Origin: a phage
Direction: 5' to 3' (one strand)
DNA: 64,000 bases
Sequence record: PZ445431.1
The first letter of the stretch is position 1. Every line of letters starts with the position of its first letter. The position numbers and the translations under genes were made by a program. Below are positions 1 through 29,963 of this stretch, piece by piece. The notes beneath the pieces are model-generated. The model was not told the DNA's origin and did no database searches. It saw only the letters and a list, made by a program, of their open reading frames with translations.

Positions 1-419
1 TGAGCGTGAATGATTTCATCACGAGGGATACCAGCACGTTCCAGAAGGTCATCAACGTTAGTAGTGAAGTTCTTCACGCTATCCGCACCATAACGCTGGA
101 ACCATTCTGCAATTCGCAGATGGGCAATGTTAGGCTCAACAGTCTGTAATTCCTGACGACGCATGTTGTAGAACTCATGAGTCTTGAGATACAGATCGTT
201 ACCATCTTTATCAATGCCAGGGAAACGAGCACTGAAGTAGTTAGGATCATCTTCACCACAGAAGCGACGGAAGCCAGCTTCAAAGTTAGGCAAGCTACAT
301 ACTTCCTCTAGATCGTACTCATCCCACAAGGATTTCCCACTAGCAGTATCAGTACGGAAAGCACGAACACCACTATCTACACTCAAACCTGCACCACTAA
401 CAACGATTAGTCTACGCAT
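1..419 (-). CDS. Sir2-like NAD-dependent deacetylase/ADP-ribosyltransferase family protein, partial (C-terminus beyond window start)
   Basis: Minus-strand frame from ATG at 419-417 translates MRRLIVVSGAGLSVDSGVRAFRTD..., i.e. the sirtuin N-terminal GAG[IL]S..SG..FR motif; stop of upstream gene overlaps the ATG (TAATG); not in ORF track because truncated. Confidence 0.55.
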   Translation of the reverse strand, partial: MRRLIVVSGAGLSVDSGVRAFRTDTASGKSLWDEYDLEEVCSLPNFEAGFRRFCGEDDPNYFSARFPGIDKDGNDLYLKTHEFYNMRRQELQTVEPNIAHLRIAEWFQRYGADSVKNFTTNVDDLLERAGIPRDEIIHA

Positions 420-613
420 TATACGATTCCTTGCTTGAATCCTTCGATGATATTTTGGAGCAGAATTGCTTCTTCTGGGCGAACCTTCTCTTGCTTAATA
501 AGCATATCCAAACCAGCAATACAGGTAGCTACTCCAGCATTATACCCAGCATTCCACTGCTCCATGAGCATATTTTCTAAATTACTTTTTAGATTCTGAT
601 TCAAGAAGTCCAT
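419..613 (-). CDS. hypothetical small protein (about 65 aa; ORF track lists longer 419..697 form)
   Basis: GGAGGA RBS immediately upstream of internal ATG at 613; region upstream of 613 better explained by the overlapping 582..785 ORF. Confidence 0.4.
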   Translation of the reverse strand: MDFLNQNLKSNLENMLMEQWNAGYNAGVATCIAGLDMLIKQEKVRPEEAILLQNIIEGFKQGIV

Positions 614-785
614 AAAGTTTTTCCTCCAATTCCATAATACGATTTTCGTAAGAAGCACGCAGCTTCTCGATGGACAAAGCACGAACTGTAACTTCATCTG
701 AATTGATCGCTAGCTGAGCTAGATCTTCTGTTTCCATACGTCCGTTGTAAATTAAGCGATATTTAAGATGTTTTACGTTTTTCAT
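582..785 (-). CDS. hypothetical protein (67 aa)
   Basis: ORF in minus-strand gene string; exact 3' end versus the 419..613 gene unresolved. Confidence 0.4.
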   Translation of the reverse strand: MKNVKHLKYRLIYNGRMETEDLAQLAINSDEVTVRALSIEKLRASYENRIMELEEKLYGLLESESKK

Positions 786-794
786 TCTTGTTCC

Positions 795-1076
795 TTAGTT
801 CTGTACTGTAAATTCATTCTTATCACAGTGAGCATAATAATACCCATACATACGATAAATTTTCACAGCCTTAGTAGACCCCTTCGATTCTTCATAATCA
901 ATCCAGAGCCACTTGTCTTTACCTACATAATGTACCCGAAACTTCTTAACTTTCTTATCATTCCATGTTGCAACAACACGACGATAATCAAATCCGCCCA
1001 ACCAATCTAGAGCCTTACGTTCTTCACTAGGCTCTCCAAGATGGGAAACATCTACTTTTGGAAGCAATTCGCTCAT
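795..1076 (-). CDS. hypothetical protein (93 aa)
   Basis: ORF with GAGGAGA RBS upstream of the ATG. Confidence 0.5.
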   Translation of the reverse strand: MSELLPKVDVSHLGEPSEERKALDWLGGFDYRRVVATWNDKKVKKFRVHYVGKDKWLWIDYEESKGSTKAVKIYRMYGYYYAHCDKNEFTVQN

Positions 1077-1174
1077 AGCTTTCTCCTCTCAAATTTATAA
1101 ATCAATTATACATAAGTTTTAGTTCGAAAGCAAATAAAATAAAAGCCAGGTCGACTAGCAACCTGGCTGATTCA

Positions 1175-3049
1175 TTATTTAGCGCGAATGTCTTGATGTT
1201 TCACTCGACCCATAACCTCATGTTGTTTACCTGGGTTAAACGGACGAGCACCTGGATTTCCAAGATATCCACAAACTCGACGAGTTACCTCAAGAGTCTC
1301 AGGATCATGGTTGCCACAAATAGGGCATTTGAAACCATCCTCAGAAGCTATAGTTTCACCCAAGAACCCACATTCCCCACAAGAGTCTACTGGAGTATTA
1401 ATACCGAAGTAATGAACTTTACTTGCAGCATAGTTAATAACCCATTCCAGTGCATCAGGGAATCGTTTCATATCCGGTAATTCCACATAGGAAATGCACC
1501 CACCAGAAGCAATAGGAGTAAAGTTAGACTCATAATCAAACTTCACATTTGGAGCAACCTTACGTTCTACATCAAGGTGATGGGAATTAGTGTAATATCC
1601 TTTAGCCAGAATATCTTCATGCTCTGGGAAATACTCACGGTCTAGGCGACAGAAGCGATCACATAGAGATTCAGATGGTGTAGCATACAGACTATACCCT
1701 AATTGAGTCTCTTCCTTCTTCTGATCAGCACGATCACGCATGTATTGTAGCACACGTTGAACGAACTTGATACAAGACTCAGACATTGTATCTACATCTT
1801 TACCAAACATGAGTTGCAACATTTCGTGGCAGCCAATATATCCTAGGGATACAGAAGCACGCTTGTAGAAATGATCAAACACATATTCATCTGGCCCCAG
1901 ACGTAATCCAAAGGCTCCTGACGTATAGAGGATGGGCGCAGCTTTAGCTTGAATGTATTTTAAGCGATCAACCCTCCACTCCAATGCTTTTAACGCGGTA
2001 TCCACACGCAGCTCAAGCAGATCGAAGAATAGATCAATATTTCCTTCCGCTTCGATAGCGATTCGAGGAAGGTTTACGGAAACAACGCCTAAGTTGTTAC
2101 GACCAGAAGTTTCACCATCTTCCGCAGCAGCCAGGAATGAACGACAGCCCATAGAGACTTTGTAGTCCCCCGTAACTTCTACAACCTTATCATAACTGAT
2201 GTAGTCAGGATACATACGTTCAGCAGTACATTTCATAGCTAACTTCTTGATATCATAGTTAACATCACCAGGTTTCATGTTTACGCCCTCACGCAAAACA
2301 AATACCAGTTTAGGGAAGATAGCTGTACGTTTATTGATACCCAAACCATCCATACGTACTTCTAGTATTGCTTTCTGTACAAGACGTGCTTCCCAAGAAG
2401 TTCCTAGACCAAAACCAAAGGTAATAAACGGACTTTGACCATTAGAGTTGAACATCGTATTGATTTCATACTCCAGGCCCTGACAGGCATCGTAAACTTC
2501 TTTCTCAGTCATTTCCGTAGCCATTACAGATGCTTTAGCTTCATCCTTAGTCCAACGCTTTGCAAACGCATGATTCTTATCATAAGACTTACGAACATAA
2601 GGAGCCAATACTTCATCTAATCGGTCTACAGAAGTACCCCCATATTGATGTGAACTAACCTGAGTGATAATCTGAGCTGTGATAGCAGCCGCAGTAGTAA
2701 TAGAGTTTGGTGTACTGATTTCAGCATTACCAACCTTCATACCATTCTTCAACATATCTTCCAAAGCAACCAGGCAACAGTTAGTCATACCTAACGCAGC
2801 GTAATCAGCATCATGGAAGTGAATATCACCAATCATGTGAGCATTTCGAATCTGGATTGGCATTTCTTCCAGAATCAGATATTTACTCAATTCCCCTGCA
2901 AGCATATCCCTTTGTGTAGGGAAACGTTCTGAGGGCTTATTGGCATTATTAAACAGCAGCTCTTCATCTGCTGAACCTTCGATAATTTCTTTGCAGTTTC
3001 GAATCAAGGACTGCATTCCTTTATACTTTAGTTCTTCATTGCGATTCAT
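1175..3049 (-). CDS. nrdD: anaerobic ribonucleoside-triphosphate reductase (class III RNR, glycyl-radical enzyme)
   Basis: 624 aa; C-terminal glycyl radical motif RVCGYLG preceded by Cys-rich zinc ribbon (CGECG...CPICG); length and layout typical of NrdD. Confidence 0.9.
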   Translation of the reverse strand: MNRNEELKYKGMQSLIRNCKEIIEGSADEELLFNNANKPSERFPTQRDMLAGELSKYLILEEMPIQIRNAHMIGDIHFHDADYAALGMTNCCLVALEDMLKNGMKVGNAEISTPNSITTAAAITAQIITQVSSHQYGGTSVDRLDEVLAPYVRKSYDKNHAFAKRWTKDEAKASVMATEMTEKEVYDACQGLEYEINTMFNSNGQSPFITFGFGLGTSWEARLVQKAILEVRMDGLGINKRTAIFPKLVFVLREGVNMKPGDVNYDIKKLAMKCTAERMYPDYISYDKVVEVTGDYKVSMGCRSFLAAAEDGETSGRNNLGVVSVNLPRIAIEAEGNIDLFFDLLELRVDTALKALEWRVDRLKYIQAKAAPILYTSGAFGLRLGPDEYVFDHFYKRASVSLGYIGCHEMLQLMFGKDVDTMSESCIKFVQRVLQYMRDRADQKKEETQLGYSLYATPSESLCDRFCRLDREYFPEHEDILAKGYYTNSHHLDVERKVAPNVKFDYESNFTPIASGGCISYVELPDMKRFPDALEWVINYAASKVHYFGINTPVDSCGECGFLGETIASEDGFKCPICGNHDPETLEVTRRVCGYLGNPGARPFNPGKQHEVMGRVKHQDIRAK

Positions 3050-3158
3050 TATACCCTCCTTCTCTAACTAAGACTACTATTATAACTCATTCGAAGGCGG
3101 ATGTCAACAATATTTTACTATAAAGTTCTGTAACATGATCTGAGTCAAAAAATTTTAT

Positions 3159-3187
3159 TTGCCAACCTCTACTAAAAATAGTATAAT
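3159..3187 (+). promoter_or_regulatory. sigma70-type promoter (TTGCCA-N17-TATAAT)
   Basis: -35 at 3159-3164, -10 at 3182-3187. Confidence 0.55.
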
Positions 3188-4454: not shown

Positions 4455-4483
4455 TTGCAAAATGACCCAAAACAAAGTAGAAT
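4455..4483 (+). promoter_or_regulatory. promoter upstream of nrdA (TTGCAA-N17-TAGAAT)
   Basis: -35 at 4455-4460, -10 at 4478-4483. Confidence 0.55.
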
Positions 4484-4521
4484 ATTTCCTAAATCCTGAT
4501 AACTACAAAAAGGAAAGCCAA

Positions 4522-6855
4522 ATGAGCCATCGTATCGAAAAAGTAATTAAACGTGACGGTACTGTTCAGGACTTTGCTCCTGAAAAACTCAATGATTGGG
4601 CTGCATGGGCATGTAAAGATACTGACGTAAGTTGGTCTGCCGTAGTTATGGCTGCCCTGAAAAATCTACCCAAAGGTGTTGTAGACTCCGATACACTCCA
4701 AGATGTGTTAATTAAAGCCGCTGAAGGTCTTATCAAAGACAACCCAGCATATGATACTGTAGCAAAGGAATTACGTCTTGCGCAGATGCGTAAACGCCTA
4801 TATGATTCTTTTGAACCTCCTTCTCTGCGTTTCTTCCACGATCATATGGTTCGTGTCGGCGCTTGGGAAGACATGAGTGCATGGATTAGCGATGATCAGT
4901 TTGAAGCTCTGAACCAAGTTATTGATCATGATCGTGATCGTTTATTCACCAGTGGTGGACTGAAACAGTTCTTCGACAAGTATTCCCGTCGTAATATTGC
5001 AACTGGTGAAATTTATGAAACCCCGCAGTTTGCCTACATGGGTATGGCAATGGCGATGTTATCTCAACCTAACTGGACAATTCTCGATGCAATCGACCTC
5101 TACAACGCAATGTCACTCCATAAAATCAACGTGCCGACTCCACCTCTCGTGGGTCTTAGGAGCAGCGACCGCGGTTTTGCTTCTTGTTGTCTTGTTGATA
5201 GTACTGATACCCTCGATTCAATCGACACAGCCGAGCACATCGTCTTCAAAATGGTCGCAGCCAGAGCGGGAATCGGGTATCATCTTGAAAGCCGATCAAT
5301 TGCTGATCCGGTGCGAAATGGGGCATTCCCGCATTCCGGAAAACTGCCATATTATCGACACATTGACCGATCAGTAAAAGCTAACACTCAGCAAACCCGT
5401 GGTGGTTCTGCTACTGTGTCTTACCCATACTTCGATCCTGAAATCATTCAGTTGATGCAGGTTAAGCAGCAACGTGCTACAGACGAGAATAAAATCGATA
5501 AGATGGATTACTCTCTGAGCTTTAACAACCTTCTGTTAAAACGTTACCTGAAAAATGAAGATATTACGCTAATGTCCTACTTCTACGCACCAGAAGTTCA
5601 TGAAGCGTTTTATGGCGAAGATGAGGCTAAGTTTGAAGAAATCTACGTGGCAGCGGAGAAACGTGTGGCATCTCTTACAAAGATCGACCACGAAGGAAAA
5701 ACAATTCCAGCAGCTCCTAGAATCTCTGCAAAAGAAATCCTAGATACTTGGTTACGTATCCGTATGGAAACAGGGCGTATGTATGCTCATCACATTGGTG
5801 AATCTAACCGTCATGGTAACTTCCTTGACCCGATTCGTATGACCAACCTTTGTGTTGAAATTACTCAGCCAACCCGTCCATTCCATCACATTACGGAGCT
5901 GTATAAGACCCAAGATCAGTTAGACGATATGCGTCCAGAGGACATTGGTGAAGTATCTCTGTGTAACTTAGGTGGTGTTGTACTAGGTCGCATGGAATCT
6001 CTGGCTGAATGGGAGAAAACTTGCTACATCCTTCTGAAATTCGTTGATACAATCATCGAGATTCAGGATTATCCATTCCCAACCATGGAATACACGGCTA
6101 AGAAACGTCGTAACGTTGGTATTGGTCTGATGAACGCAGCAGGTGCAATGGCAGCAGAAGGTTTGGCTTACGAAGGTGTTGAAGCACGTAACTGGATTCA
6201 CCGTGAAGCTGAAAAGCTGTCCTACTTCCTGCACAAAGCCTCTGTACGTCTGGCCAAAGAACAGGGTGCATGTGACTGGTTTAATCGTACTAAGCCTTCA
6301 CAAGGAACTCTGGTAATCGACACGTATAAGAAAACTGTTGATGAACTGGTAACTGTAGGTCTAGAAATGGATTGGGAATCTCTACGTGCAGATATCCTGA
6401 AATATGGTATGCGTAACTCCGTTCTGACTGCTCAGATGCCGGGTGAAAGTTCCTCTGTACTGCTAGGTGTTACTAACTCTATTGAACCGCCTCGTAAGAT
6501 TGTATCTATCAAGGGTAGTGCAGTGAATAAAGTAATTGCAATTGCTCCAGGTGCAACTGATTGGGATACATTAATGAGCTATAAACTGGCTTATGATGTA
6601 GATCGTATCGAGTGGATCAAATGGGTAGCAACCATGCAGAAATTCTTCAGTCAGTCTATAAGTACGAATATGTACTATGACTACACCAAGTTTGAGAATG
6701 AAATTATTCCTGGCCCAGTAGTAGTTCGTGACTTCATGACTGCTGTTAAGTACGGTTGGAAAACTTTCTACTATGCAAACTTTAACACCGAGAATGGTGG
6801 TGGTGCAGGGGAAGAAACTGCTGCTGGATGCGCATCAGGTGGTTGTAACCTGTAA
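4522..6855 (+). CDS. nrdA: ribonucleoside-diphosphate reductase large subunit (class Ia)
   Basis: ATP-cone N-terminus (VIKRDGTVQDF), about 778 aa from ATG 4522 with AAGGAAAG RBS; track start 4462 lies inside the promoter. Confidence 0.9.
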   Translation: MSHRIEKVIKRDGTVQDFAPEKLNDWAAWACKDTDVSWSAVVMAALKNLPKGVVDSDTLQDVLIKAAEGLIKDNPAYDTVAKELRLAQMRKRLYDSFEPPSLRFFHDHMVRVGAWEDMSAWISDDQFEALNQVIDHDRDRLFTSGGLKQFFDKYSRRNIATGEIYETPQFAYMGMAMAMLSQPNWTILDAIDLYNAMSLHKINVPTPPLVGLRSSDRGFASCCLVDSTDTLDSIDTAEHIVFKMVAARAGIGYHLESRSIADPVRNGAFPHSGKLPYYRHIDRSVKANTQQTRGGSATVSYPYFDPEIIQLMQVKQQRATDENKIDKMDYSLSFNNLLLKRYLKNEDITLMSYFYAPEVHEAFYGEDEAKFEEIYVAAEKRVASLTKIDHEGKTIPAAPRISAKEILDTWLRIRMETGRMYAHHIGESNRHGNFLDPIRMTNLCVEITQPTRPFHHITELYKTQDQLDDMRPEDIGEVSLCNLGGVVLGRMESLAEWEKTCYILLKFVDTIIEIQDYPFPTMEYTAKKRRNVGIGLMNAAGAMAAEGLAYEGVEARNWIHREAEKLSYFLHKASVRLAKEQGACDWFNRTKPSQGTLVIDTYKKTVDELVTVGLEMDWESLRADILKYGMRNSVLTAQMPGESSSVLLGVTNSIEPPRKIVSIKGSAVNKVIAIAPGATDWDTLMSYKLAYDVDRIEWIKWVATMQKFFSQSISTNMYYDYTKFENEIIPGPVVVRDFMTAVKYGWKTFYYANFNTENGGGAGEETAAGCASGGCNL

Positions 6856-6956: not shown

Positions 6957-7472
6957 TTGATAACACAAGATGAATTAAAAAGGATTCTGGAGTATAATCC
7001 AGATGAAGGAACATTTACTTGGTTAAATAACCAAGAAGTACACAATAAAGTAAGAGGACTACCTGCTGGTTGTTTAAAACCCCACTCAGTAGATCCTAAC
7101 CGAAAAGACTTAGTAATACAAATCAATGGTAAGAAATATCCTGCACAAAATATTGCTTTCCTGTACATGACAGGAAACTTACCTAAAGTTATGGTTGATC
7201 ATATAGATGGAGATTCACTAAACTATAAGTGGACTAATCTAAGAGAAGCAGACTGGCAGTTAAATAGTCAAAATAGAAAAACCAGTAAAAACAATATATT
7301 GGGTACTAAGAATATTCGGAAGAAAGGGTCTGGATTTCAAGTTAGAAAATCCATTAACGGAAAAGAATACGTGAAAACTCTTCCAACTCTCGAAGAGGCG
7401 ATAGAGTATCGAGATTCTTTAATCCTCTCTATAACCAAAGACCCAACACTACTTAGAAACACAGATAAATAG
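6957..7472 (+). CDS. HNH homing endonuclease with AP2-type DNA-binding domain (free-standing, between nrdA and nrdB)
   Basis: N-terminal ELK..LEYNPDEG.F.W motif, DHIDGD...N...NLR HNH core, AP2-like SGFQVRK..NGKEY; TTG start after AAGGAG; paralogous to 28254, 39420, 41576. Confidence 0.8.
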   Translation: MITQDELKRILEYNPDEGTFTWLNNQEVHNKVRGLPAGCLKPHSVDPNRKDLVIQINGKKYPAQNIAFLYMTGNLPKVMVDHIDGDSLNYKWTNLREADWQLNSQNRKTSKNNILGTKNIRKKGSGFQVRKSINGKEYVKTLPTLEEAIEYRDSLILSITKDPTLLRNTDK

Positions 7473-7480: not shown

Positions 7481-8626
7481 ATGACAACTTTACTTAACTT
7501 AAACTGGGATCATACCAATAAAGATCTATTTCTCGGTGATTCTCTTGGTATTGCAGATTATGTACGAGTAGCTCATCCAGAGCTAGAAAGGCTGGCGTTA
7601 TTAGCTCGCTCTCAATTCTGGACTGAAACTGAAATCAGTCTGGAAGCTGATAAGAAACAATGGCCAAACCTTCCGCGTGATATTCAGGAAATTACTCTCC
7701 TGAACTTAGCATGGCAGACCCAAACAGATTCTTTCATTAGCCGTGCTCCTGAAGCAGCTATTATGCCGCTTGTAAGCCGTCCTGAATTGGAGGGTATGCT
7801 CAAGCAGTGGAGCTACTTCGAAGATCTGCATAGCCGTGCATATAGTAACATTATTCGTAACGTTCTGACTGATCCAGCAGAATTTATTGATTCTGTAACT
7901 AAAAACCAAGAAGCATTTGCACGTATCGCAGATTCTGTTGAACTGTTTGATGAATTGTATCTGTTAGGTCAGTATTTCCTTGCAGTACGTGATCATCGTG
8001 GTGATAATACTTATCCAGAAACTGAGTTCCCTGAAGTTAAACGTGAAACTCAGGCTAAGCTGTTAGATGCTTACTTTGCAATCTACGGTCTGGAAGCAAT
8101 GCAGTTCTACGCATCCTTTGCATGTACCTTTGCTCTAGCAGAGAACGATATTCTGCAAGGTATTGCCAAGAACCTGCAACTAATCGCTAAAGATGAAGCT
8201 CTACATACTCAAATGTCTAAAGCTATCATCCAGATTATGTTCCAGCAGTTTGATAAAGATCTGGTAGACGAAGCATTAGCTAAAGCACCAGCACAACTCC
8301 TAAAAACTCTGAAAACTGAGATTGAATGGGGCCACTTTATCTTTAAAGGCCGCAGTCTGATTGGTTTGAACGCAGAATTGCTTGAAGAATACCTTTACTT
8401 TGTAGGACGTAACGCATTTATGCACATTGGTGTAGAATGGCCAAGCCACTTACCTGTAATTACTAAGAACCCTATTCCGTGGATTATGAACTGGCTGGAT
8501 ACTACTTCCTTACAGCCTGCCCCACAAGAAATCCAGATTGGTGCAGCATATCGTGTGGGTCAGGTAACTGAAACTTCTGCTGATACCCTGAAAGATCTGG
8601 GTAACGAATTTGAGGGCATGTTCTAA
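7481..8626 (+). CDS. nrdB: ribonucleoside-diphosphate reductase small subunit (class Ia)
   Basis: 381 aa, di-iron RNR small-subunit layout, directly downstream of nrdA. Confidence 0.85.
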   Translation: MTTLLNLNWDHTNKDLFLGDSLGIADYVRVAHPELERLALLARSQFWTETEISLEADKKQWPNLPRDIQEITLLNLAWQTQTDSFISRAPEAAIMPLVSRPELEGMLKQWSYFEDLHSRAYSNIIRNVLTDPAEFIDSVTKNQEAFARIADSVELFDELYLLGQYFLAVRDHRGDNTYPETEFPEVKRETQAKLLDAYFAIYGLEAMQFYASFACTFALAENDILQGIAKNLQLIAKDEALHTQMSKAIIQIMFQQFDKDLVDEALAKAPAQLLKTLKTEIEWGHFIFKGRSLIGLNAELLEEYLYFVGRNAFMHIGVEWPSHLPVITKNPIPWIMNWLDTTSLQPAPQEIQIGAAYRVGQVTETSADTLKDLGNEFEGMF

Positions 8627-18291: not shown

Positions 18292-18363
18292 CGGGGTGTA
18301 GTCTAAGGGATAGGCAGGAGTCTTCTAAATTCCTTTATGCAGGTTCGAATCCTGTCACCTCGG
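18292..18363 (+). tRNA. tRNA-Arg (anticodon UCU, read by eye)
   Basis: Acceptor CGGGGTG/CACCTCG (one G-U), anticodon arm GGAGT-CTTCTAA-ATTCC, T-arm GCAGG-TTCGAAT-CCTGT, encoded CCA. Confidence 0.55.
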
Positions 18364-18392
18364 CCAATTTTATTAACTGCTAGGAAAATAAA

Positions 18393-18593
18393 GTGAAAAC
18401 ACGATATATAGTAAAAGTAGTAGGTGAACATTCACAAGTAAATACCACCGATGTTACAGCGCTAGCATTTGAAGTAGTCTCCGGTATAGTCATATTTCAT
18501 AACGGAGATATCAAAGCTCCTGAATTTGCTGTGGATGCTAGCCTGTTTATTTCTGCAACTAAAGTAACTGTAGTAGCTAACTCTTCTAAATAA
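18393..18593 (+). CDS. hypothetical protein (66 aa)
   Basis: ORF track only. Confidence 0.4.
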   Translation: MKTRYIVKVVGEHSQVNTTDVTALAFEVVSGIVIFHNGDIKAPEFAVDASLFISATKVTVVANSSK

Positions 18594-18604
18594 TAAGGAA
18601 ATAT

Positions 18605-19549
18605 ATGTTTACTAAAAACACTAAAGAACTGACTTCCGATCAAAAAGTAATTCGTACTATTAAACGTTGGGGCGTTGGTGCTGTAGTTGGTCTTGGCGCT
18701 CTTATTCTGGCTCTCAATTCCTATACAGTTGTTCAGGACGGTACGGTTAAAACTCAGACTTTCCTGGGTAAAGTTAGTCCTAATCCTGTATTGCCGGGGT
18801 TCCATATTGTCAACCCATTCGCCTCTTTTGATACTTTTAGTACGAAAGATATTTCTATGAAACTGGATAAACTTCAGGTTCCTAGCCAGGATAAGTTTAA
18901 GTCCACTGTTGACATTACCGTTATGTTGCAGTTTGATGGTGCTAAAGCTCCTATGAACCGTGTTAACGCAGGTACTCAGGATCAAGCTCTGAACAAGTAC
19001 GTTGAAGAGAAGATGCTATCTACGATTCGTGAGTTTGGTAAGTCTGTACCAAAAGCACAAGATCTGTTCGACGCTAAGATTCAGGCTCAACTGCAAACTG
19101 CTATTCAGCAAGAAGTAGAAGAGTACGCGCGTCCTTATGGTTACACGGTTAAGCAAGTATTCCTTCAGGATATTACTCTGCCACCTGTAATCATGGAACA
19201 GGTACAAAACACAAAAGTTCGTGAAGAACAAGTTAACGCCGCTAAAGCTGAATTGGCTCGTGTTGAACAAGAAGCACAGCAGAAAGTTAAGCAAGCTGAA
19301 GCTGATCGTTCTGCTCGTGAAAACATGGCAGTAGCTAACGAACGTGACGCAGATGCTAAACTGTACGCAGCTAAGAAAGAAGCTGAAGCTAACGCCGCGC
19401 TGCAACGTACCATTACTCCTGAAATGATTCGTTGGAAGCAGCTGGAAGTTGAAATGCTTCGTGCTGAAAAATACCAAGGTGGTGTACCGCAGACTGTTGT
19501 TGGTACTGGCTACGATGGTCAAATGATCATGGATATGCGTAACAAGTAA
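18605..19549 (+). CDS. SPFH/band-7 (prohibitin/HflKC-like) membrane protein
   Basis: N-terminal TM helix, then VVQDGTVK...LPGFHIVNPF SPFH core and long Ala/Glu/Gln-rich coiled-coil tail. Confidence 0.7.
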   Translation: MFTKNTKELTSDQKVIRTIKRWGVGAVVGLGALILALNSYTVVQDGTVKTQTFLGKVSPNPVLPGFHIVNPFASFDTFSTKDISMKLDKLQVPSQDKFKSTVDITVMLQFDGAKAPMNRVNAGTQDQALNKYVEEKMLSTIREFGKSVPKAQDLFDAKIQAQLQTAIQQEVEEYARPYGYTVKQVFLQDITLPPVIMEQVQNTKVREEQVNAAKAELARVEQEAQQKVKQAEADRSARENMAVANERDADAKLYAAKKEAEANAALQRTITPEMIRWKQLEVEMLRAEKYQGGVPQTVVGTGYDGQMIMDMRNK

Positions 19550-19572
19550 TAGTTACACGTAATCTTCGAACC

Positions 19573-19612
19573 AAGCCCGCGTTTCCTCTGAGAGCGCGGG
19601 CTTTTCTGTATT
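19573..19612 (+). terminator. rho-independent terminator
   Basis: AAGCCCGCG ... CGCGGGCTT stem followed by TTCTGTATTT. Confidence 0.7.
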
Positions 19613-19752
19613 TAAGGCAAAAGAAAAGCCCATAAGTTATTCAACTAAGGTCTTTAGTATTTAATTCTTTAGAATCATATACTATTATTTCAGCAACAAC
19701 GTGCTGCCCTTAAGTGCCCTGCGATTTTCCTCTAAAAAGTTAAAAAATTCGA

Positions 19753-19781
19753 TTGCTTGAATGCTAAATTCTCTGTATAAT
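19753..19781 (+). promoter_or_regulatory. T5-type early promoter upstream of nadR-like gene
   Basis: TTGCTT 19753-19758, TATAAT 19776-19781. Confidence 0.7.
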
Positions 19782-19811
19782 ATATTTATAAATTTGAGAG
19801 AGGAATCAAAT

Positions 19812-20867
19812 ATGATTAAGACTGGTCTAGTAATTGGTAAGTTCGCACCATTAACACGTGGTCATATTAACCTAATAAACACAGCAGCAACTATGTGTGA
19901 ACGAGTTATAGTTGTAGTTAGTCATGATAATCGCTGGCTGGATAAACAAAACACACGTGATCAGGAAGTCTTACAGTTAAAGAACCGACTTCGTTGGTTA
20001 GAACAAACTTACGCGGATATTGAGCACATTTCGGTAGAGTACATTATTGAAGATGATATTCCTGAATATCCGAATGGTTGGCCGGAATATGCTAGAATAC
20101 TTAATGAAAATTATGGACATTTGCCTGAGATCACCATTTTCTCTAGCGAACTAGACTATGATGCAGAATATAAGAAATATCTGCCGAAGTTTGGTCATTA
20201 TATTGTAGATTCTGATCGGACTCGTGTTCCAATCTCAGCTACAATGATTCGTAATGATCTTATGAAGTATTGGGAGTTTCTTCCTAGCGTAGTTCGTAAA
20301 GATTACGTGCGTAAGGTTGTAATCATTGGGACTGAAAGCTCGGGAAAGACTACTTTAACAAAATACCTTGCGAAGCTATACAACACTTCGTGGGTAGAAG
20401 AATATGGTCGAACGTATTGTGAAGTTGATCTAGTTGGTAACGAAAATCTGCTTACCAGCGAAGATTATAGTAAAATTGCGTTCAGACACAAAGAGCTAGA
20501 GTTTGAAGCAGAACGTACTGCAAATAAGATCATGTTTGTGGATACAAATGCTTTTATTACTGAGTTCTACCACAGACTTTATGAACATAGTAAGAATCCT
20601 GTGGTTACAGCAATTGCAAAAGAAGAACATTATGATTTAGTAATTGTTCTAGCGCCTACTGTCAAGTGGGTAGATGATGGTTTACGTATTAACTCCGATC
20701 GTTCAATTACTTCTGAACTGTTCGAGCAGATGAAGAAAGAATTTCCAAATCAGTTCCCTGAAGGGCGTACTGTTTACATCGACTCTCCGGACTACAAAGT
20801 TCGTATGGACGAAGCAGTAAACGCAGTAGACTGGCTGATTCATCACTTTAACGTTGGAGAGTTTTAA
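19812..20867 (+). CDS. nadR: NadR-like bifunctional NMN adenylyltransferase / ribosylnicotinamide kinase (no HTH domain)
   Basis: GKFAPLTRGHINLI nucleotidyltransferase motif and VVIIGTESSGKTTLTKYLAKLYNTSWVEEYGR P-loop closely matching NadR; start ATG 19812 after conserved leader GAGAGAGGAATCAAAT. Confidence 0.8.
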   Translation: MIKTGLVIGKFAPLTRGHINLINTAATMCERVIVVVSHDNRWLDKQNTRDQEVLQLKNRLRWLEQTYADIEHISVEYIIEDDIPEYPNGWPEYARILNENYGHLPEITIFSSELDYDAEYKKYLPKFGHYIVDSDRTRVPISATMIRNDLMKYWEFLPSVVRKDYVRKVVIIGTESSGKTTLTKYLAKLYNTSWVEEYGRTYCEVDLVGNENLLTSEDYSKIAFRHKELEFEAERTANKIMFVDTNAFITEFYHRLYEHSKNPVVTAIAKEEHYDLVIVLAPTVKWVDDGLRINSDRSITSELFEQMKKEFPNQFPEGRTVYIDSPDYKVRMDEAVNAVDWLIHHFNVGEF

Positions 20868-20868
20868 T

Positions 20869-21546
20869 ATGACTAACTATCTCGTAAATGACTTTAAAAA
20901 CTGGAAACCTCTGGAATATCTGTGGCTGTTCATAGCGGTTGTCTTCATTAGTTTAGCAAACTATAATGGTACAGCTCTAGATTGGGCTACTGCAATAACC
21001 AATGTGGTTTGTGTTATTCTGGTTGCAAAAGGACGTGTTTCCAACTATATTTGGGGCTTAGTGGGTGTTCTTACATATGGTATTACAGCTTTAAACGCAG
21101 ATCTTTATGGTAACGCTGCACTAAACCTGCTATACTACGTTCCTATGCAGTTTTATGGAATGTACTTATGGCATAAAAATAAGCCAAGTAATCTGCCGGA
21201 TGTTCCAACTAAGGTTCTGACTAAAGCCCAAGCTCTGCTGACTCTAGGGATTCTAGCAGTAGCCACGTTAGGGTATGGTAGTTTCTTAGCTACTACGGCT
21301 GATCCATTTCCAATGTTGGATGCATTTACTGCGGTAGGTAGTGTGATCGCTATGTGGCTTATGGTTAAGCAGTATGCCGAGCAGTGGCTGATCTGGATTG
21401 CTATTAACATTGGTACTGTGTACATTTGGCTTGTAACTGCTCAATCTACAGGTGCATCTTATGCAATCCTAGCAATGTGGCTAGTATTCTTAGGTAACTC
21501 TATTATGGGAGCCTATAAAGGATACTTTGTACGCGTTAACAAATAA
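20869..21546 (+). CDS. pnuC: PnuC-family nicotinamide riboside transporter
   Basis: Multi-TM 226 aa protein with Trp-rich PnuC-like helices, immediately downstream of the nadR-like gene. Confidence 0.7.
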   Translation: MTNYLVNDFKNWKPLEYLWLFIAVVFISLANYNGTALDWATAITNVVCVILVAKGRVSNYIWGLVGVLTYGITALNADLYGNAALNLLYYVPMQFYGMYLWHKNKPSNLPDVPTKVLTKAQALLTLGILAVATLGYGSFLATTADPFPMLDAFTAVGSVIAMWLMVKQYAEQWLIWIAINIGTVYIWLVTAQSTGASYAILAMWLVFLGNSIMGAYKGYFVRVNK

Positions 21547-21553
21547 AGTAGTT

Positions 21554-21580
21554 ATAGCCCTCGCTTAGAGGGCTATTATA
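21554..21580 (+). terminator. rho-independent terminator
   Basis: TAGCCCTC-GCTTA-GAGGGCTA hairpin followed by TTATAC. Confidence 0.6.
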
Positions 21581-21593
21581 CAGAAATTTTCAC

Positions 21594-21622
21594 TTGCTTA
21601 ATATAGAAAATTTCTGTATAAT
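21594..21622 (+). promoter_or_regulatory. T5-type early promoter
   Basis: TTGCTT 21594-21599, TATAAT 21617-21622. Confidence 0.7.
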
Positions 21623-21652
21623 ATATTTATAAATTTGAGAGAGGAATCAAAT

Positions 21653-21949
21653 ATGAAACGCATTGTACTTGCATTGACTCTAGTATCTACTTCTGTATTT
21701 GCTGCTCCACAACAGGAACTTTGTCAAGTTCAAGTTTGTAATAAGCTAGAACGATTTACTCTAGACATTTGGTCACATATTAAAGATAATATGGGTGAAC
21801 AGTGTTTTGATATTGTTCTGCCAAAAGAACAAGCTGTTCCTGGTGCTGTTCTCAGTTCAGAATCACGTTGGTGGCAGGGTTCTTCTATCAATCCAACTAA
21901 GAAGTCAGTGACACGTATCAAACAAGTATATCAGTGCAATGTTCAGTAA
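21653..21949 (+). CDS. secreted small Cys-containing protein
   Basis: Signal peptide MKRIVLALTLVSTSVFA; four Cys; conserved promoter/leader upstream. Confidence 0.6.
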   Translation: MKRIVLALTLVSTSVFAAPQQELCQVQVCNKLERFTLDIWSHIKDNMGEQCFDIVLPKEQAVPGAVLSSESRWWQGSSINPTKKSVTRIKQVYQCNVQ

Positions 21950-21957
21950 AATTTCAC

Positions 21958-21986
21958 TTGCTTAATGCCGAAATTTTCTGTATAAT
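21958..21986 (+). promoter_or_regulatory. T5-type early promoter driving tRNA-Ser/tRNA-CAU
   Basis: TTGCTT 21958-21963, TATAAT 21981-21986; tRNA starts 15 nt downstream. Confidence 0.7.
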
Positions 21987-22000
21987 ATATTCATAATTTC

Positions 22001-22091
22001 GGAAGATTAACCCTAAAGGTAAGGGAGCTGTTTGCTAAACAGCTAGTAGCTGTGGAAACACGGTGTGCCAGTTCGAGTCTGGCATCTTCCT
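22001..22091 (+). tRNA. tRNA-Ser (anticodon GCU), type II
   Basis: Perfect acceptor GGAAGAT/ATCTTCC, anticodon arm GCTGT-TTGCTAA-ACAGC, long variable arm, T-arm GCCAG-TTCGAGT-CTGGC, encoded CCA. Confidence 0.75.
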
Positions 22092-22099
22092 CCAAATTT

Positions 22100-22174
22100 G
22101 GTTCTCAAGCTCATTTGGTATGAGCCGTCGCCTCATAAGCGAAAGGTAGGTAGGTTCGAATCCTCCGGGAGCCA
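22100..22174 (+). tRNA. tRNA with CAU anticodon (Met/fMet or Ile-lysidine)
   Basis: Acceptor GGTTCTC/GGGAGCC (two G-U), anticodon loop CTCATAA, T-loop TTCGAAT, encoded CCA. Confidence 0.6.
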
Positions 22175-22194
22175 CCAATTAACTAGGAGACGAT

Positions 22195-22380
22195 ATGTCT
22201 AAGTTTCAGGAATTGAAGCAGGAACTAGAAGAGTGTGCCTGCCCAAAATGCTTCGGAGCAGGTGAATGGAACGATGCTGAACCTGGTGATACATGGTATA
22301 ATACATACGTTTGTACACATTGTAATGGTTCTGGTATTAATCCTGAATGCGGTATTTCTCTAGGTATTGAGCGAGGCTAA
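22195..22380 (+). CDS. hypothetical Cys-rich (zinc-ribbon-like) small protein
   Basis: CxxC ... CxxC pairs in 61 aa; AGGAG RBS. Confidence 0.5.
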   Translation: MSKFQELKQELEECACPKCFGAGEWNDAEPGDTWYNTYVCTHCNGSGINPECGISLGIERG

Positions 22381-22381
22381 G

Positions 22382-22714
22382 ATGGATATTTACACTACAC
22401 CAGCAGTAAACCTGATTGGCTCTTGCCTTGTGCATTTCCGCTTCTTCCAAACGGATGATAGCAAAGAGGAGTATACCTATCCTCTGATGGATTTTCAGAT
22501 TGAGGACTTCTTCCGTGAAGTGCGTAATATCTCTGAGAACTTCTATTATGGCATGGATAAGGAAGACTTTGACATTGAGTTCCCTATAATCTCTCGTTAT
22601 TTCCTAGAGCAGTCCGACGCTCGGTTTGAGAAGATTGAACACATGGAAGTAGCCTGGGCTATCCAGTTCGAAATTACTGGCTTTGCTCGATACATTCAAG
22701 GTTACGAACTATGA
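22382..22714 (+). CDS. hypothetical protein (about 110 aa)
   Basis: ORF; start moved to internal ATG 22382 to avoid overlap. Confidence 0.5.
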   Translation: MDIYTTPAVNLIGSCLVHFRFFQTDDSKEEYTYPLMDFQIEDFFREVRNISENFYYGMDKEDFDIEFPIISRYFLEQSDARFEKIEHMEVAWAIQFEITGFARYIQGYEL

Positions 22715-22809
22715 AATTAAAAGATTATTATATTGGTTGGTTTGTAGGACTAATAGTAGGATTTTCACTGGGCTACAACTTGTATCAACTGATAAACTGA
22801 TTACATGGG
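22714..22809 (+). CDS. possible small hydrophobic peptide (31 aa)
   Basis: ATGA-coupled to upstream stop; single predicted TM; overlaps the 5' end of the following tRNA by 3 nt. Confidence 0.25.
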
Positions 22810-22880
22810 GGTGTAATCGAATTGGCATAGGTACTGGACTTAAAATTCAGGTTTTGTGGGTTCGAATCCCACCACCCCTA
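22807..22880 (+). tRNA. tRNA, anticodon UAA by eye (Leu-type anticodon on a short-variable-arm body)
   Basis: Acceptor GGGGGTG/CACCCCT, anticodon arm CTGGA-CTTAAAA-TTCAG, T-arm GTGGG-TTCGAAT-CCCAC, A73, encoded CCA. Confidence 0.55.
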
Positions 22881-22898
22881 CCAAATTAAGGAAATAAA

Positions 22899-23021
22899 AT
22901 GAAAGCTATTAAGAAAGCACTGCGTAAATTTATGTATTGTCGTTTTCATAGCATCAAGGCTTCAACTAATGGTACTACTTACGATCGCTATGATCCTAAG
23001 TTTGGCTTACATTCTAAATAA
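22899..23021 (+). CDS. possible small basic protein (40 aa)
   Basis: AAGGAA RBS then ATG; not in track (<60 aa). Confidence 0.3.
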   Translation: MKAIKKALRKFMYCRFHSIKASTNGTTYDRYDPKFGLHSK

Positions 23022-23035
23022 CTGGAGAAAACAAA

Positions 23036-23241
23036 TGGCTAATCCTGAAATTACGGCACAACGCTTTATGCTGAAAGGAATTATTGCTGAAGCAGGCATG
23101 ACAGAAGAAGTTGCAGATTTTCAAAAGCAATTCCTCAATATTCTCACTCAAGCCAAAGAGCTAGGAGAGAAAGAACATGGCGCGGCTATTATGGCAATCA
23201 CATTGGTTGGGCTTGATCTGGCTGAAGAATCAGGAGTTTAA
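23036..23241 (+). CDS. hypothetical protein (68 aa)
   Basis: ATG 23036 after GGAGAA RBS; track form 22969..23241 begins inside the preceding small ORF. Confidence 0.45.
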
Positions 23242-23271
23242 CTCCTCCAAGCAGAAATTTTAAAAATGTAC

Positions 23272-23301
23272 TTGCTTTTTACTTAAGATTTCTGCTATAA
23301 T
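23272..23301 (+). promoter_or_regulatory. T5-type early promoter (N18 spacing)
   Basis: TTGCTT 23272-23277, TATAAT 23296-23301. Confidence 0.6.
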
Positions 23302-23330
23302 AGTTATATAAGTTGATGAGAGGAATCAGA

Positions 23331-23597
23331 ATGTTAAAACGTTTTGCAGCAACTGGTATTGAAAGCTCAGTATGTAAATCCTGGGGTGGTTGGGAAGGTG
23401 AGATCGAGTGGCTTTATTTCTACAATGTAGAACTTCTTCCAGAGATCAAAGCTCAATGTATTGAGGCTGGTATGGCTCCTGATGCTACGGCTGATGTTGA
23501 AATCAGCATGAATAAGCTAGAGGGTCGAGTAGTCACTGTTACTGATGAAGGTGAAGAGGTATTCGAACTTCCATTCACTTTGAAAGTCACTCCTTAA
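23331..23597 (+). CDS. hypothetical protein (88 aa)
   Basis: ATG directly after conserved leader TTGATGAGAGGAATCAGA. Confidence 0.55.
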   Translation: MLKRFAATGIESSVCKSWGGWEGEIEWLYFYNVELLPEIKAQCIEAGMAPDATADVEISMNKLEGRVVTVTDEGEEVFELPFTLKVTP

Positions 23598-23642
23598 TTT
23601 GATTAACTGATACAGCACTGAGCAAGTTCTTTAAAATTTGAC

Positions 23643-23671
23643 TTGCTCAGTCCTTCAAAACTTGATATAAT
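23643..23671 (+). promoter_or_regulatory. T5-type early promoter driving tRNA-Tyr/Glu cluster
   Basis: TTGCTC 23643-23648, TATAAT 23666-23671. Confidence 0.65.
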
Positions 23672-23735
23672 AGTTATCTAATTTGGAAAACATATTTAAA
23701 AGTGTTTAAACTAGTATTTGAATATTTCTAAATAT

Positions 23736-23823: not shown

Positions 23824-23833
23824 CCAAATTTAA

Positions 23834-29962: not shown

Positions 29963-29963
29963 T

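What the first reader, a model, noticed from the sequence alone, without database searches (positions are those of the whole stretch)
1..419. Sir2-like gene immediately upstream of nrdD (partial)
The minus-strand ORF starting at 419 translates to MRRLIVVSGAGLSVDSGVRAFR..., the N-terminal NAD-binding signature of sirtuins. Sir2 domains are effectors in several bacterial defence systems and also occur in phages. Together with the NadR/PnuC pair this indicates unusual investment in NAD metabolism.
Basis: partly seen in the sequence, partly recalled or inferred. Interest (0 to 1): 0.45.

Follow-up and report, generated by a model that had tools for sequence, protein, structure and literature searches.

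The report
Known phage sirtuin gene, function untested
The window starts inside an already annotated Sir2-like (sirtuin) gene of the T5-like coliphage TrudiRoth (Bas30); it looks catalytically intact and resembles the bacterial deacylase CobB rather than defence NADases, but nobody has tested what it acts on.

Summary
A minus-strand ORF starts at 419 and leaves the window after 139 codons. It is the 5' half of bas30_0054 ("Sir2-like protein", 283 aa) of Escherichia phage TrudiRoth, the orthologue of T5.102 (PHROG 2162).

It has the catalytic His140, whose codon straddles the window edge, and a confident Rossmann/sirtuin model whose best structural match is E. coli CobB.

It belongs to a zinc-less subgroup that I saw only in phage records and phage-sized contigs. 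It keeps the CobB/SIRT5-type Tyr-x-x-Arg pocket but has TTNVD in place of TQNID. About 980 phage records carry a homologue. It matches no defence-system model.

It is not "immediately upstream of nrdD". It lies downstream of nrdD, after a terminator and three small genes, in an accessory operon with a HAD "RNA-repair" phosphatase. That operon is destroyed in the viable phage DT57C.

The NadR/PnuC pair is real but lies 19 kb away. It has already been characterised in this same phage as the NARP3 NAD+-rebuilding pathway.

The function of the sirtuin is untested. My best guess is an NAD+-dependent lysine deacylase (about 0.4). The main rival, already published as a prediction, is a Tpt1-like RNA 2'-phosphate remover (about 0.3).

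Verdict: already known, modest interest.

The parts
1..419 (-). 5' part of the phage sirtuin gene (bas30_0054, T5.102 orthologue): codons 1-139 plus the first two bases of codon 140 (catalytic His). Contains GAGLS (res 9-13), F21-R22, C41, Y84-x-x-R87, P96-N97..H100 and T119-T120-N121-V122-D123. Codons 140-283 lie outside the window (record 49,559-49,991).
   Evidence: residue mapping to E. coli CobB
419..613 (-). Small ORF bas30_0055 (PHROG 5827, unknown function). Its TAA stop overlaps the sir2 ATG by one base (TAATG), which suggests translational coupling within one operon.
   Evidence: no Pfam hit
582..785 (-). Small ORF bas30_0056 (PHROG 5236, unknown function), same operon.
795..1076 (-). 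Small ORF bas30_0057 (PHROG 7953, unknown function), first gene after the nrdD terminator.
1105..1133 (-). Promoter-like TTGCTT-17 nt-TATAAT read directly from the sequence. It falls below the scan's -35 threshold. T5 has an annotated promoter at the equivalent position, between the nrdD terminator and T5.100. Inferred start of the sir2 operon.
   Evidence: sequence; T5 annotation
1144..1168 (-). Intrinsic-terminator-like hairpin (10-bp stem, 6 GC pairs, then TTTATTTTAT) starting 7 nt after the nrdD stop codon. It separates nrdD from the sir2 operon.
   Evidence: T5 annotates a terminator at the same place
1175..3049 (-). nrdD (anaerobic ribonucleotide reductase), the upstream neighbour. Listed for context only; it is not part of the sirtuin module.
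   Evidence: (NRDD E=1e-172)

Best explanation
SHOWN. Window 1-419 is the 5' half of the T5.102-type phage sirtuin gene of phage TrudiRoth/Bas30 (283 aa). The protein has a complete sirtuin catalytic core: NAD-binding GAGLS and F21-R22, N121 and D123, and the general-base His140. It also has the KPNVTFFGE acyl-lysine tunnel motif and the class-III (CobB/SIRT5) pocket residues Tyr84 and Arg87, with a small residue (Cys41) where CobB has Ala76. It lacks all four zinc-binding cysteines and has Thr in place of the TQNID glutamine. These traits define a subgroup that I saw only in phage records and phage-sized contigs.

INFERRED (operon). The gene sits in a dispensable operon with its own promoter-like site. 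I take it to be early-expressed from its position among sigma70-type promoters. The operon contains the small ORFs, sir2, a HAD_SAK_2 phosphatase and two DUF7415 proteins.

INFERRED (mechanism). The enzyme binds NAD+. An oxygen nucleophile on the substrate attacks C1' of the nicotinamide ribose and releases nicotinamide. His140 then activates the ribose 2'-OH to resolve the intermediate. The substrate I judge most likely is an acyl-lysine, probably a negatively charged acyl group such as succinyl or malonyl, on host or phage proteins. That would make it a CobB-like eraser of protein acylation that consumes NAD+ during infection. The NAD+ it uses would draw on the pool that the phage's NARP3 pathway can refill.

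CONFIDENCE. About 0.97 for the identity as a catalytically competent sirtuin, and about 0.4 for lysine deacylase as the actual activity.
For: Identity: 100% match to MZ501109.1, annotated Sir2-like; Pfam SIR2 at E=1.4e-21 for the full-length protein; PHROG 2162 at E=8e-107.

Fold: AF2 model of a 98%-identical family representative (P0001) has pLDDT 87.6 and pTM 0.86. The best PDB matches are E. coli CobB 1S5P/6RX* (target-normalised TM 0.83), then Sir2Af1 and SIRT5. Sequence and profile searches give the same order, and no defence-type SIR2 appears among the listed hits.

Active site: in 28 family members G9, A10, G11, S13, F21, R22, Y84, R87, N121, D123, H140, G141, P174, F179 and E181 are invariant. 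Mapping to CobB gives A76->C41, Y92->Y84, R95->R87, I131->V122, H147->H140 and V187->V176. Entry titles of engineered CobB variants name A76, Y92, I131 and V187 as the mutated residues. That these set acyl selectivity, and that Tyr/Arg bind the succinyl carboxylate in SIRT5 and CobB, is from my own knowledge (Du et al. 2011; Colak et al. 2013).

Operon: TAATG overlap with the upstream ORF, terminator after nrdD, and the T5 promoter and terminator annotation.

Dispensability: DT57C carries only a sir2 remnant annotated as defective.

An earlier in-silico study of phage Sir2/CobB proteins also argued for deacetylase function and noted the missing zinc site (PMC5107563).
Against: No biochemical or genetic data for any phage sirtuin were found in the searchable literature.

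The subgroup departs from every characterised deacylase. It has no Zn module. It has TTNVD instead of TQNID. The second substrate-binding loop is remodelled: VI(D/N)FNWELFP replaces CobB's VYP. It scores far below the NCBIfam CobB cut-offs (72-88 bits against 243-320).

Gene context points away from protein substrates. A HAD_SAK_2 'RNA-repair' phosphatase is linked to sir2 in T5-likes, in Erwinia phage KEY and in the distant contig L060. An Rnl1-type RNA ligase, a cREC domain and a P-loop kinase flank it in rV5-like phages. A deacylase has no obvious need for these partners.

The structural model is of a 98%-identical protein, and I could not inspect its substrate cleft directly.
Confidence: 0.4

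Rival explanations
1. RNA-repair sirtuin, the published prediction of Iyer, Burroughs, Anantharaman and Aravind 2022. The enzyme would use NAD+ as Tpt1/KptA does. A 2'-phosphate on RNA, left after opening of a 2',3'-cyclic phosphate made by a host anticodon nuclease or toxin RNase, attacks NAD+ C1'. His140 and the ribose 2'-OH then resolve the adduct to ADP-ribose 1'',2''-cyclic phosphate, leaving a 2'-OH on the RNA. The linked HAD, cREC, Metallophos and kinase enzymes would prepare the RNA ends or clean up the ADP-ribose phosphate product.
For: PMC9503650 section 3.7.3 describes this subgroup and names the T5-like 'SP15-type' sirtuin + Swiss-army-knife HAD neighbourhood.

Checked here:
- HAD_SAK_2 lies three genes downstream of sir2 in TrudiRoth and T5.
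- It shares a four-gene operon with sir2 in Erwinia phage KEY.
- It lies 2.4 kb from sir2 in the distant contig L060 (E=4e-21).
- In rV5-like loci the order is Metallophos ... RNA_lig_T4_1 - cREC_REC - AAA_33 kinase - (small ORF) - Sir2 - DNA ligase ... MazG-like. Ligase + kinase + cyclic-phosphate enzyme are the three activities of yeast Trl1, whose product needs Tpt1 (own knowledge).
- A HAD_SAK homologue sits about 1 kb from RnlA in an Aeromonas T4-like phage.
- In the rows displayed, KptA-bearing phages (98 records, mostly jumbo phages) are different lineages from the Zn-less sirtuin lineages.
- The subgroup's derived traits (no Zn, Q->T, remodelled loop) suggest a changed substrate.
- The phage carries 21 tRNA genes in this window, which are potential nuclease targets.
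Against: The evidence is purely contextual, and no sirtuin has been shown to act on nucleic acid.

The T5-like genome has no annotated RNA ligase or polynucleotide kinase in the regions I read, so the pathway would be incomplete there.

In phi92-like phages sir2 lies about 33 kb from the cREC/RNA ligase genes, and its immediate neighbours have no Pfam hit. HAD is missing next to an intact sir2 in some T5-like lineages (L010/L011, L019).

The narrow lysine-tunnel motif KPNV(V/T)FFGE and the distal Tyr/Arg pair are conserved as in deacylases.

The KptA neighbourhoods I examined gave no informative domains, so I could not show gene displacement.
Confidence: 0.3
2. Protein mono-ADP-ribosyltransferase. 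The sirtuin would transfer ADP-ribose to a host or phage protein, as SirTM and SIRT4/6 do, to hijack or switch off a host function.
For: An intact NAD+ site and His140. A departure from canonical deacylases in the substrate loops. Phages commonly ADP-ribosylate host proteins (background reviewed in PMC9503650).
Against: No adjacent macrodomain, which is the defining partner of SirTM, among the annotated or Pfam-scanned neighbours. The class-III acyl pocket is conserved. Profile and fold searches rank deacylases first.
Confidence: 0.1
3. NADase or small-molecule NAD/ADPR-metabolising enzyme. Examples would be pre-emptive NAD+ turnover, superinfection exclusion, or destruction or production of a signalling nucleotide, by analogy with the defence SIR2 domains the first reader had in mind.
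For: The genome region is rich in nucleotide metabolism genes: nrdD, nrdAB, thyA, frd and phoH. PRPP synthetase and MazG-like genes lie near sir2 in rV5-like loci. A nucleoside deoxyribosyltransferase-like gene lies next to a jumbo-phage sirtuin. The phage can rebuild NAD+ through NARP3.
Against: No PADLOC hit. Pfam SIR2 was the only family reported. No HerA, TIR, pAgo or SLOG partner among the neighbours. A virulent phage that also needs NAD+ for its own NAD-dependent ligase has little reason to destroy NAD+. The acyl pocket and substrate tunnel are conserved.
Confidence: 0.1

Closest known systems
T5.102 'putative Sir2-like protein' of phage T5 / PHROG 2162 (phage Sir2 family)
   Same: Orthologous gene at the same genomic position: nrdD - small ORFs - sir2 - small ORFs - HAD - 2x DUF7415 - ori-binding/primase gene. 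52% identity to T5. PHROG 2162 at E=8e-107.
   Different: The TrudiRoth-type protein carries a variable insertion of about 27 aa (roughly res 47-73) that T5 and many other members lack. It is closer to the sirtuins of phi92-like myoviruses (59-63%) than to T5's own, which suggests exchange between phage lineages.
E. coli CobB (class III sirtuin; PDB 1S5P, 6RXJ)
   Same: Best sequence and fold match (E=1.6e-16 single sequence, 4e-25 profile; target-normalised TM 0.83). Shares GAGxS, FR, N-x-D, the catalytic His, the P-x-V-x-F-G-E tunnel, the Tyr-x-x-Arg pocket and the adenine-binding Asn.
   Different: Only 26-30% identity. All four Zn cysteines are missing (C155->Tyr148; C174, C176 and C177 fall in a deletion). 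TQNID is TTNVD. A76 is Cys41. VYP is VID plus an FNWELFP insertion. It fails the NCBIfam CobB cut-offs.
Human SIRT5 (desuccinylase/demalonylase)
   Same: Same fold. Same Tyr/Arg pair plus a small residue at the Ala86-equivalent position, which in SIRT5 selects negatively charged acyl groups (residue roles from my own knowledge).
   Different: About 20% identity. SIRT5 has a zinc module and is mitochondrial. Its activity is demonstrated, whereas here it is only inferred.
Tpt1/KptA RNA 2'-phosphotransferase
   Same: NAD+-consuming enzyme with two-step chemistry that parallels the sirtuin mechanism. It is the proposed functional analogue, and it occurs in phage RNA-repair contexts in lineages different from those with this sirtuin in the rows displayed.
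   Different: Unrelated fold (ADP-ribosyltransferase superfamily). No experimental link to sirtuins. Gene displacement could not be shown here.
Defence-system SIR2 domains (ThsA, DSR1/2, SIR2-HerA, SPARSA)
   Same: Same broad superfamily and the same co-substrate, NAD+.
   Different: Those are triggered NADases with partner or sensor domains. This protein is a stand-alone 283-aa sirtuin with no PADLOC hit, no partner genes and a conserved acyl-lysine tunnel.

Membership tests
Sirtuin family (Pfam PF02146 SIR2) | Scores above the Pfam gathering threshold | tested here: met
   77.7 bits against a cutoff of 24 for the full protein; 46.2 bits for the window fragment alone
Sirtuin family (Pfam PF02146 SIR2) | Catalytic motifs GAGxS, FR, (T)QNxD and the HG general-base histidine | tested here: met
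   G9-A10-G11-L12-S13, F21-R22, N121/D123 and H140-G141 are invariant in 28 homologues and align to CobB G48-S52, F60-R61, N130/D132 and H147. The only deviation is Q129->T120
Sirtuin family (Pfam PF02146 SIR2) | Rossmann-fold large domain plus a small domain | tested here: met
   AF2 model pLDDT 87.6. Foldseek matches to CobB, Sir2Af1 and SIRT5 have E of 1e-13 to 1e-16 and target-normalised TM up to 0.83
Canonical deacylase sirtuins (classes I-IV, U) | Structural Zn2+ bound by four cysteines in the small domain | tested here: not met
   No cysteine between H140 and K173. CobB C155, C174, C176 and C177 align to Tyr148 or to gaps. The only invariant Cys in the family is C41. Jumbo-phage relatives L063 and L064 do keep the four Cys
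Class III sirtuins (CobB/SIRT5 type) | Tyr-x-x-Arg pair plus a small residue at the SIRT5 Ala86 / CobB Ala76 position | tested here: met
   Y84 and R87 are invariant or nearly so and align to CobB Y92 and R95. C41 aligns to A76
CobB equivalog (NCBIfam NF040867, NF001755, NF001753) | Score above the curated NCBIfam cut-off | tested here: not met
   71-88 bits against cut-offs of 243-320
Class III sirtuins (CobB/SIRT5 type) | NAD+-dependent lysine deacylase activity | not testable with these tools
   Needs an enzyme assay. No published assay of any phage sirtuin was found
Phage 'RNA-repair' sirtuin clade (Iyer et al. 2022, type 3, SP15-like) | Phage-encoded sirtuin in a conserved neighbourhood with a Swiss-army-knife HAD phosphatase and without an adjacent Macro domain | tested here: met
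   HAD_SAK_2 (PF18143, E=2e-18, DxDG motif present) lies three genes downstream. No macro domain among the neighbours. The linkage recurs in KEY and L060 (paper)
Phage 'RNA-repair' sirtuin clade (Iyer et al. 2022) | Acts on RNA 2'-phosphate (Tpt1-like activity) | not testable with these tools
   This is a prediction only. It needs an RNA substrate assay or tpt1-delta complementation
Defence-system SIR2 effectors (Thoeris ThsA, DSR, SIR2-HerA, short pAgo) | Match to defence-system models and presence of partner or sensor genes or domains | tested here: not met
   No PADLOC family at E<=0.1. Pfam SIR2 was the only family reported. Neighbours are small ORFs, HAD, DUF7415 and nrdD
SirTM (macrodomain-linked ADP-ribosylating sirtuins) | Operon partner encoding a macrodomain | tested here: not met
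   No macrodomain among the annotated or Pfam-scanned neighbours

The most novel reading that the evidence does not exclude
The zinc-less TTNVD phage sirtuins, including this one, would not be protein deacylases. They would be the first sirtuins that act on nucleic acid, as functional replacements for Tpt1/KptA. They would strip 2'-phosphates from tRNA or mRNA damaged by host nucleases, or ADP-ribosylate RNA ends, working with the linked HAD, cREC and kinase enzymes and, where present, an RNA ligase. In T5-like phages they would protect the phage's own large tRNA set. This idea is already published as a computational prediction (PMC9503650), so only the experimental proof would be new.
Probability: 0.3. 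Interest if true: 0.7.

Novelty: already known. Interest (0 to 1): 0.27.

Why it matters
As a finding it adds little. The gene is annotated in this record, in T5 and in hundreds of relatives, and the NadR/PnuC pair it was linked to has just been characterised in this very phage.

What remains open is a real but already recognised question. About 980 phage records carry a sirtuin homologue, most of them close to this conserved, apparently active type, and its substrate is unknown. If it is a deacylase, virulent phages reset host protein acylation. If it is a Tpt1 analogue, sirtuin chemistry extends to RNA repair and to counter-defence against tRNA nucleases.

The phage also combines two NAD+ consumers (this sirtuin and an NAD-dependent ligase) with an NAD+ rebuilding pathway. 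That is relevant to how NARP3 is interpreted.

Tried and rejected
1. Defence-type SIR2 reading: rejected. No PADLOC hit, Pfam SIR2 was the only family reported, and there are no partner genes.

2. afdb50 fold search, to look for cellular zinc-less relatives: the library was not available.

4. Test of KptA/Sir2 gene displacement: KptA was found in 98 phage records of other lineages. Its neighbours in two jumbo phages gave no informative Pfam domains. Inconclusive.

5. phi92-type neighbourhoods: the flanking genes have no Pfam hits.

6. Literature searches for any experimental work on phage sirtuins found only two in-silico treatments.

7. Plasmid search: only canonical CobB-like hits at 35% identity or less, plus one rV5-like 'plasmid' record. 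Together with the homologue search, whose named hits are phage proteins or isolate contigs, I saw the zinc-less subgroup only in phage records and phage-sized contigs. Most database hits are unnamed contigs, so I did not verify phage restriction systematically.

8. Record-based coordinates failed beyond window position about 26,000. The window lacks 979 bp of the GenBank record.

9. I could not inspect the coordinates of the structural model, so I made no statement about cleft shape or charge.

Full report
WHAT IS THERE

Translating window 419->1 on the minus strand gives an uninterrupted 139-codon reading frame beginning MRRLIVVSGAGLSVDSGVRAFR. The fragment alone matches Pfam SIR2 at E=6.4e-12.

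Window 1-3100 is 100% identical to Escherichia phage TrudiRoth (BASEL phage Bas30, MZ501109.1; Demerecviridae, Epseptimavirus, a T5-like siphovirus). In that record the ORF is bas30_0054, annotated "Sir2-like protein", 283 aa. The window ends two bases into codon 140 (CAC, His), which is the catalytic histidine.

POSITION RELATIVE TO nrdD

The statement about position is wrong. nrdD occupies 1175-3049 on the same (minus) strand, so the sirtuin gene lies downstream of it. The following elements lie between them:
- A strong terminator-like hairpin at 1168-1144.
- A TTGCTT-17-TATAAT promoter-like site at 1133-1105, read directly. T5 annotates a promoter and a terminator at the same places.
- Three small ORFs of unknown function.

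The last small ORF's stop codon overlaps the sir2 start codon (TAATG), which indicates one operon. Outside the window the operon continues with two more small ORFs, a 168-aa HAD_SAK_2 phosphatase (PF18143, E=2e-18, with an intact DIDG motif) and two DUF7415 proteins. It ends before the primase/ori-binding gene.

THE PROTEIN

The full-length protein hits Pfam SIR2 at E=1.4e-21 and PHROG 2162 "Sir2" at E=8e-107. It hits nothing in PADLOC. It matches the NCBIfam CobB-type models only far below their cut-offs.

An AlphaFold2 model of a 98%-identical family representative is confident (pLDDT 87.6, pTM 0.86). Its best PDB matches are E. coli CobB (target-normalised TM 0.83), then Sir2Af1 and SIRT5. 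Sequence and profile searches of the PDB give the same ranking, and no defence-type SIR2 appears among the listed hits.

An alignment of 28 homologues, and an alignment with E. coli CobB, show the following:
- The NAD-binding and catalytic residues are invariant: G9-A10-G11-x-S13, F21-R22, N121, D123 and H140-G141. H140 corresponds to CobB H147.
- The tunnel motif K173-P174-N-V176-x-F-F179-G-E181 is conserved, as is the adenine-binding N232.
- The class-III pocket is kept: Y84 and R87 align to CobB Y92 and R95, and C41 aligns to A76. Entry titles of engineered CobB variants name A76, Y92, I131 and V187 as the mutated residues. That these control acyl selectivity is from my own knowledge.

HOW IT DIFFERS FROM CANONICAL SIRTUINS

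- All four zinc cysteines are absent.
- The TQNID glutamine is an invariant threonine (T120).
- The second substrate loop is remodelled: VI(D/N)FNWELFP.
- TrudiRoth-type members carry a variable insertion of about 27 residues in the helical module.

More distant jumbo-phage sirtuins (L063, L064) keep the four cysteines and TQN(I/C)DD. The zinc-less TTNVD form is therefore a derived subgroup. An earlier in-silico paper had already noticed the missing zinc site in Vibrio-phage Sir2/CobB proteins (PMC5107563).

DISTRIBUTION

tblastn finds homologues in 979 phage records:
- T5-likes, including T5 itself (T5.102, 52% identity).
- phi92-like and Phapecoctavirus myoviruses (about 59-63%).
- rV5-like Vequintavirinae (about 46%).
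- 4MG/KB57-like phages (about 54%).
- Jumbo phages (30-38%).

The large protein database returned 388 relatives. The 120 listed are all at least 53% identical. Those that carry a source name are phage proteins or proteins from bacterial isolate contigs. Most of the rest are unnamed metagenome or read-archive contigs, several of them of phage-genome size. Plasmid records hold only canonical CobB-like proteins plus one record the size of an rV5-like phage genome. I did not verify phage restriction systematically.

The gene is dispensable. In the viable T5-like phage DT57C a single lesion has destroyed both sir2 (annotated "defective") and the HAD gene.

CONTEXT EVIDENCE ON FUNCTION

I collected 63 loci in 19 sirtuin identity groups and clustered their neighbouring ORFs.

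In T5-likes the order is nrdD - small ORFs - Sir2 - small ORFs - HAD_SAK_2 - DUF7415 x2.

The HAD-Sir2 link recurs in two further settings:
- A minimal four-gene operon in the distant demerecvirus Erwinia phage KEY.
- Within 2.4 kb of sir2 in the distant zinc-less locus L060.

The HAD gene is absent next to an intact sir2 in two other T5-like groups.

In rV5-like and related loci (five to six groups) the order is Metallophos ... RNA_lig_T4_1 - cREC_REC - AAA_33 kinase - (small ORF) - Sir2 - ATP DNA ligase ... MazG-like, with PRPP synthetase and a Band_7 gene nearby.

A HAD_SAK homologue lies about 1 kb from RnlA in an Aeromonas T4-like phage that has no sirtuin nearby.

In phi92-like phages the sirtuin's neighbours have no recognisable domains, and the cREC/RNA ligase genes lie about 33 kb away.

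These observations reproduce the neighbourhood types reported by Iyer et al. 2022 (PMC9503650, section 3.7.3). That paper predicted that this sirtuin clade is a KptA/Tpt1-like remover of RNA 2'-phosphates.

KptA itself occurs in 98 phage records. In the rows displayed these belong to other lineages. I could not show that it occupies an equivalent module.

No experimental study of any phage sirtuin was found.

THE NAD CONTEXT

The NadR-like gene (window 19812-20867; CTP_transf_like + AAA_28 domains) and the PnuC gene (20869-21546) are real. They are Bas30_86/87, characterised biochemically, structurally and in vivo in this very phage as NARP3. NARP3 is a nicotinamide-riboside salvage pathway that restores NAD+ depleted by Sir2-HerA and DSR1 (Sci Adv 2026, PMC13464706).

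That paper does not discuss the phage's own sirtuin. The pair lies 19 kb away on the other strand. Close NadR homologues are confined to roughly 200 Epseptimavirus-type records, whereas the sirtuin family is far broader.

NARP3 imports NR and does not recycle nicotinamide, the sirtuin's product. Any coupling between them would therefore run only through the common NAD+ pool.

The phage also has a second NAD+ consumer outside the window, a two-subunit NAD-dependent DNA ligase.

HOW IT MOST LIKELY WORKS

Shown:
- A catalytically complete, stand-alone, class-III-like sirtuin.
- A zinc-less subgroup seen only in phage records and phage-sized contigs.
- Membership of a dispensable operon that contains a HAD phosphatase.

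Inferred: it binds NAD+, a substrate oxygen attacks C1' and releases nicotinamide, and His140 activates the ribose 2'-OH to resolve the adduct.

For the substrate I weigh two kinds of evidence:
- Direct active-site evidence. The lysine tunnel and the Tyr/Arg/small-residue pocket are as in CobB and SIRT5.
- Context evidence. Partners of RNA end-healing and sealing type are linked to sir2 in several lineages, together with the subgroup's derived features.

My probabilities are:
- Lysine deacylase, probably favouring acidic acyl groups: about 0.4.
- Tpt1-like RNA 2'-phosphate or RNA-end ADP-ribosyl transfer: about 0.3.
- Protein ADP-ribosyltransferase: about 0.1.
- NADase or small-molecule role: about 0.1.
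- Something else: the remainder.

The defence-effector analogy is not supported.

VERDICT

The positional detail is wrong. The defence analogy is unsupported. The linked NadR/PnuC observation has already been explained in the literature.

The residual interest lies in the untested function of a very widespread phage sirtuin subgroup, for which a specific and testable prediction already exists.

Noticed in passing
window 19812-21546 (+): NadR-like bifunctional NR kinase/NMN adenylyltransferase (no HTH domain detected) followed by a PnuC transporter. This is Bas30_86/87, published in August 2026 as the NARP3 NAD+-reconstitution anti-defence pathway of this same phage (PMC13464706).
   Followed up: yes
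window 25928-26003 and the junction near 25,950-25,990: The window lacks 979 bp that are present in GenBank MZ501109.1 between two near-identical tRNA-Lys(CTT) genes (record 75,918-75,994 and 76,897-76,973). It carries a single hybrid tRNA-Lys, with the 5' end of copy 1 and the 3' end of copy 2, so the acceptor stem probably mismatches. tRNA-Gly and three small ORFs are lost. This is either a recombinational deletion variant or an assembly collapse. Coordinates after about 26,000 are offset by 50,970 from the record rather than 49,991.
   Followed up: partly
window 63519-64000: The last 482 bases equal positions 1-482 of the GenBank record (terminase small subunit). The window therefore runs across the record's end and start.
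   Followed up: partly
window 18292-30220 (+): Cluster of 21 tRNA genes found by ARAGORN, one of them with an odd 4-base anticodon call at 27616-27691. They are interleaved with small ORFs and homing endonuclease genes. They are potential targets of host tRNA nucleases, which bears on the RNA-repair hypothesis.
   Followed up: partly
window 18605-19549 (+); also L020 10644-11534: An SPFH/Band_7 protein is encoded immediately upstream of NadR. A Band_7 gene also recurs about 4 kb downstream of the sirtuin in rV5-like phages. The recurrence near NAD-related genes is unexplained.
   Followed up: no
window 30821-31189 (+): A 122-aa protein consisting of a glycyl-radical domain (Gly_radical, E=4e-18), resembling the GrcA/YfiD 'spare part'. 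It occurs in a phage that also encodes the glycyl-radical enzyme NrdD.
   Followed up: partly
window 3079-3107 (-) and 3159-3187 (+): Back-to-back near-perfect sigma70 promoters: 12/12 matches for nrdD and 11/12 for phoH, in the divergent intergenic region.
   Followed up: no
window 6957-7472 (+): An HNH homing endonuclease gene inserted between nrdA (4462-6855) and nrdB (7481-8626).
   Followed up: partly
L067 (phage DT57C, NC_027356.1 46,493-46,765): A 'defective' sir2 remnant. Residual similarity to the C-terminal parts of both sir2 and the HAD gene shows that one lesion removed most of sir2, the two small ORFs and most of HAD. The module is dispensable and the two genes were lost together.
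   Followed up: yes
L068 (Erwinia phage KEY, MZ616364.1 48,573-50,355): A minimal four-gene operon, HAD_SAK - hypothetical - Sir2 - small ORF, followed by an annotated terminator, with no nrdD or DUF7415 genes. This is the cleanest case of HAD-Sir2 linkage.
   Followed up: partly
L065 (record 39,377-41,486, outside the window): An NAD-dependent DNA ligase split into A and B subunit genes. It is a second NAD+-consuming enzyme of this phage. The NARP3 paper does not mention DNA ligase.
   Followed up: no
[not shown]
   Followed up: partly
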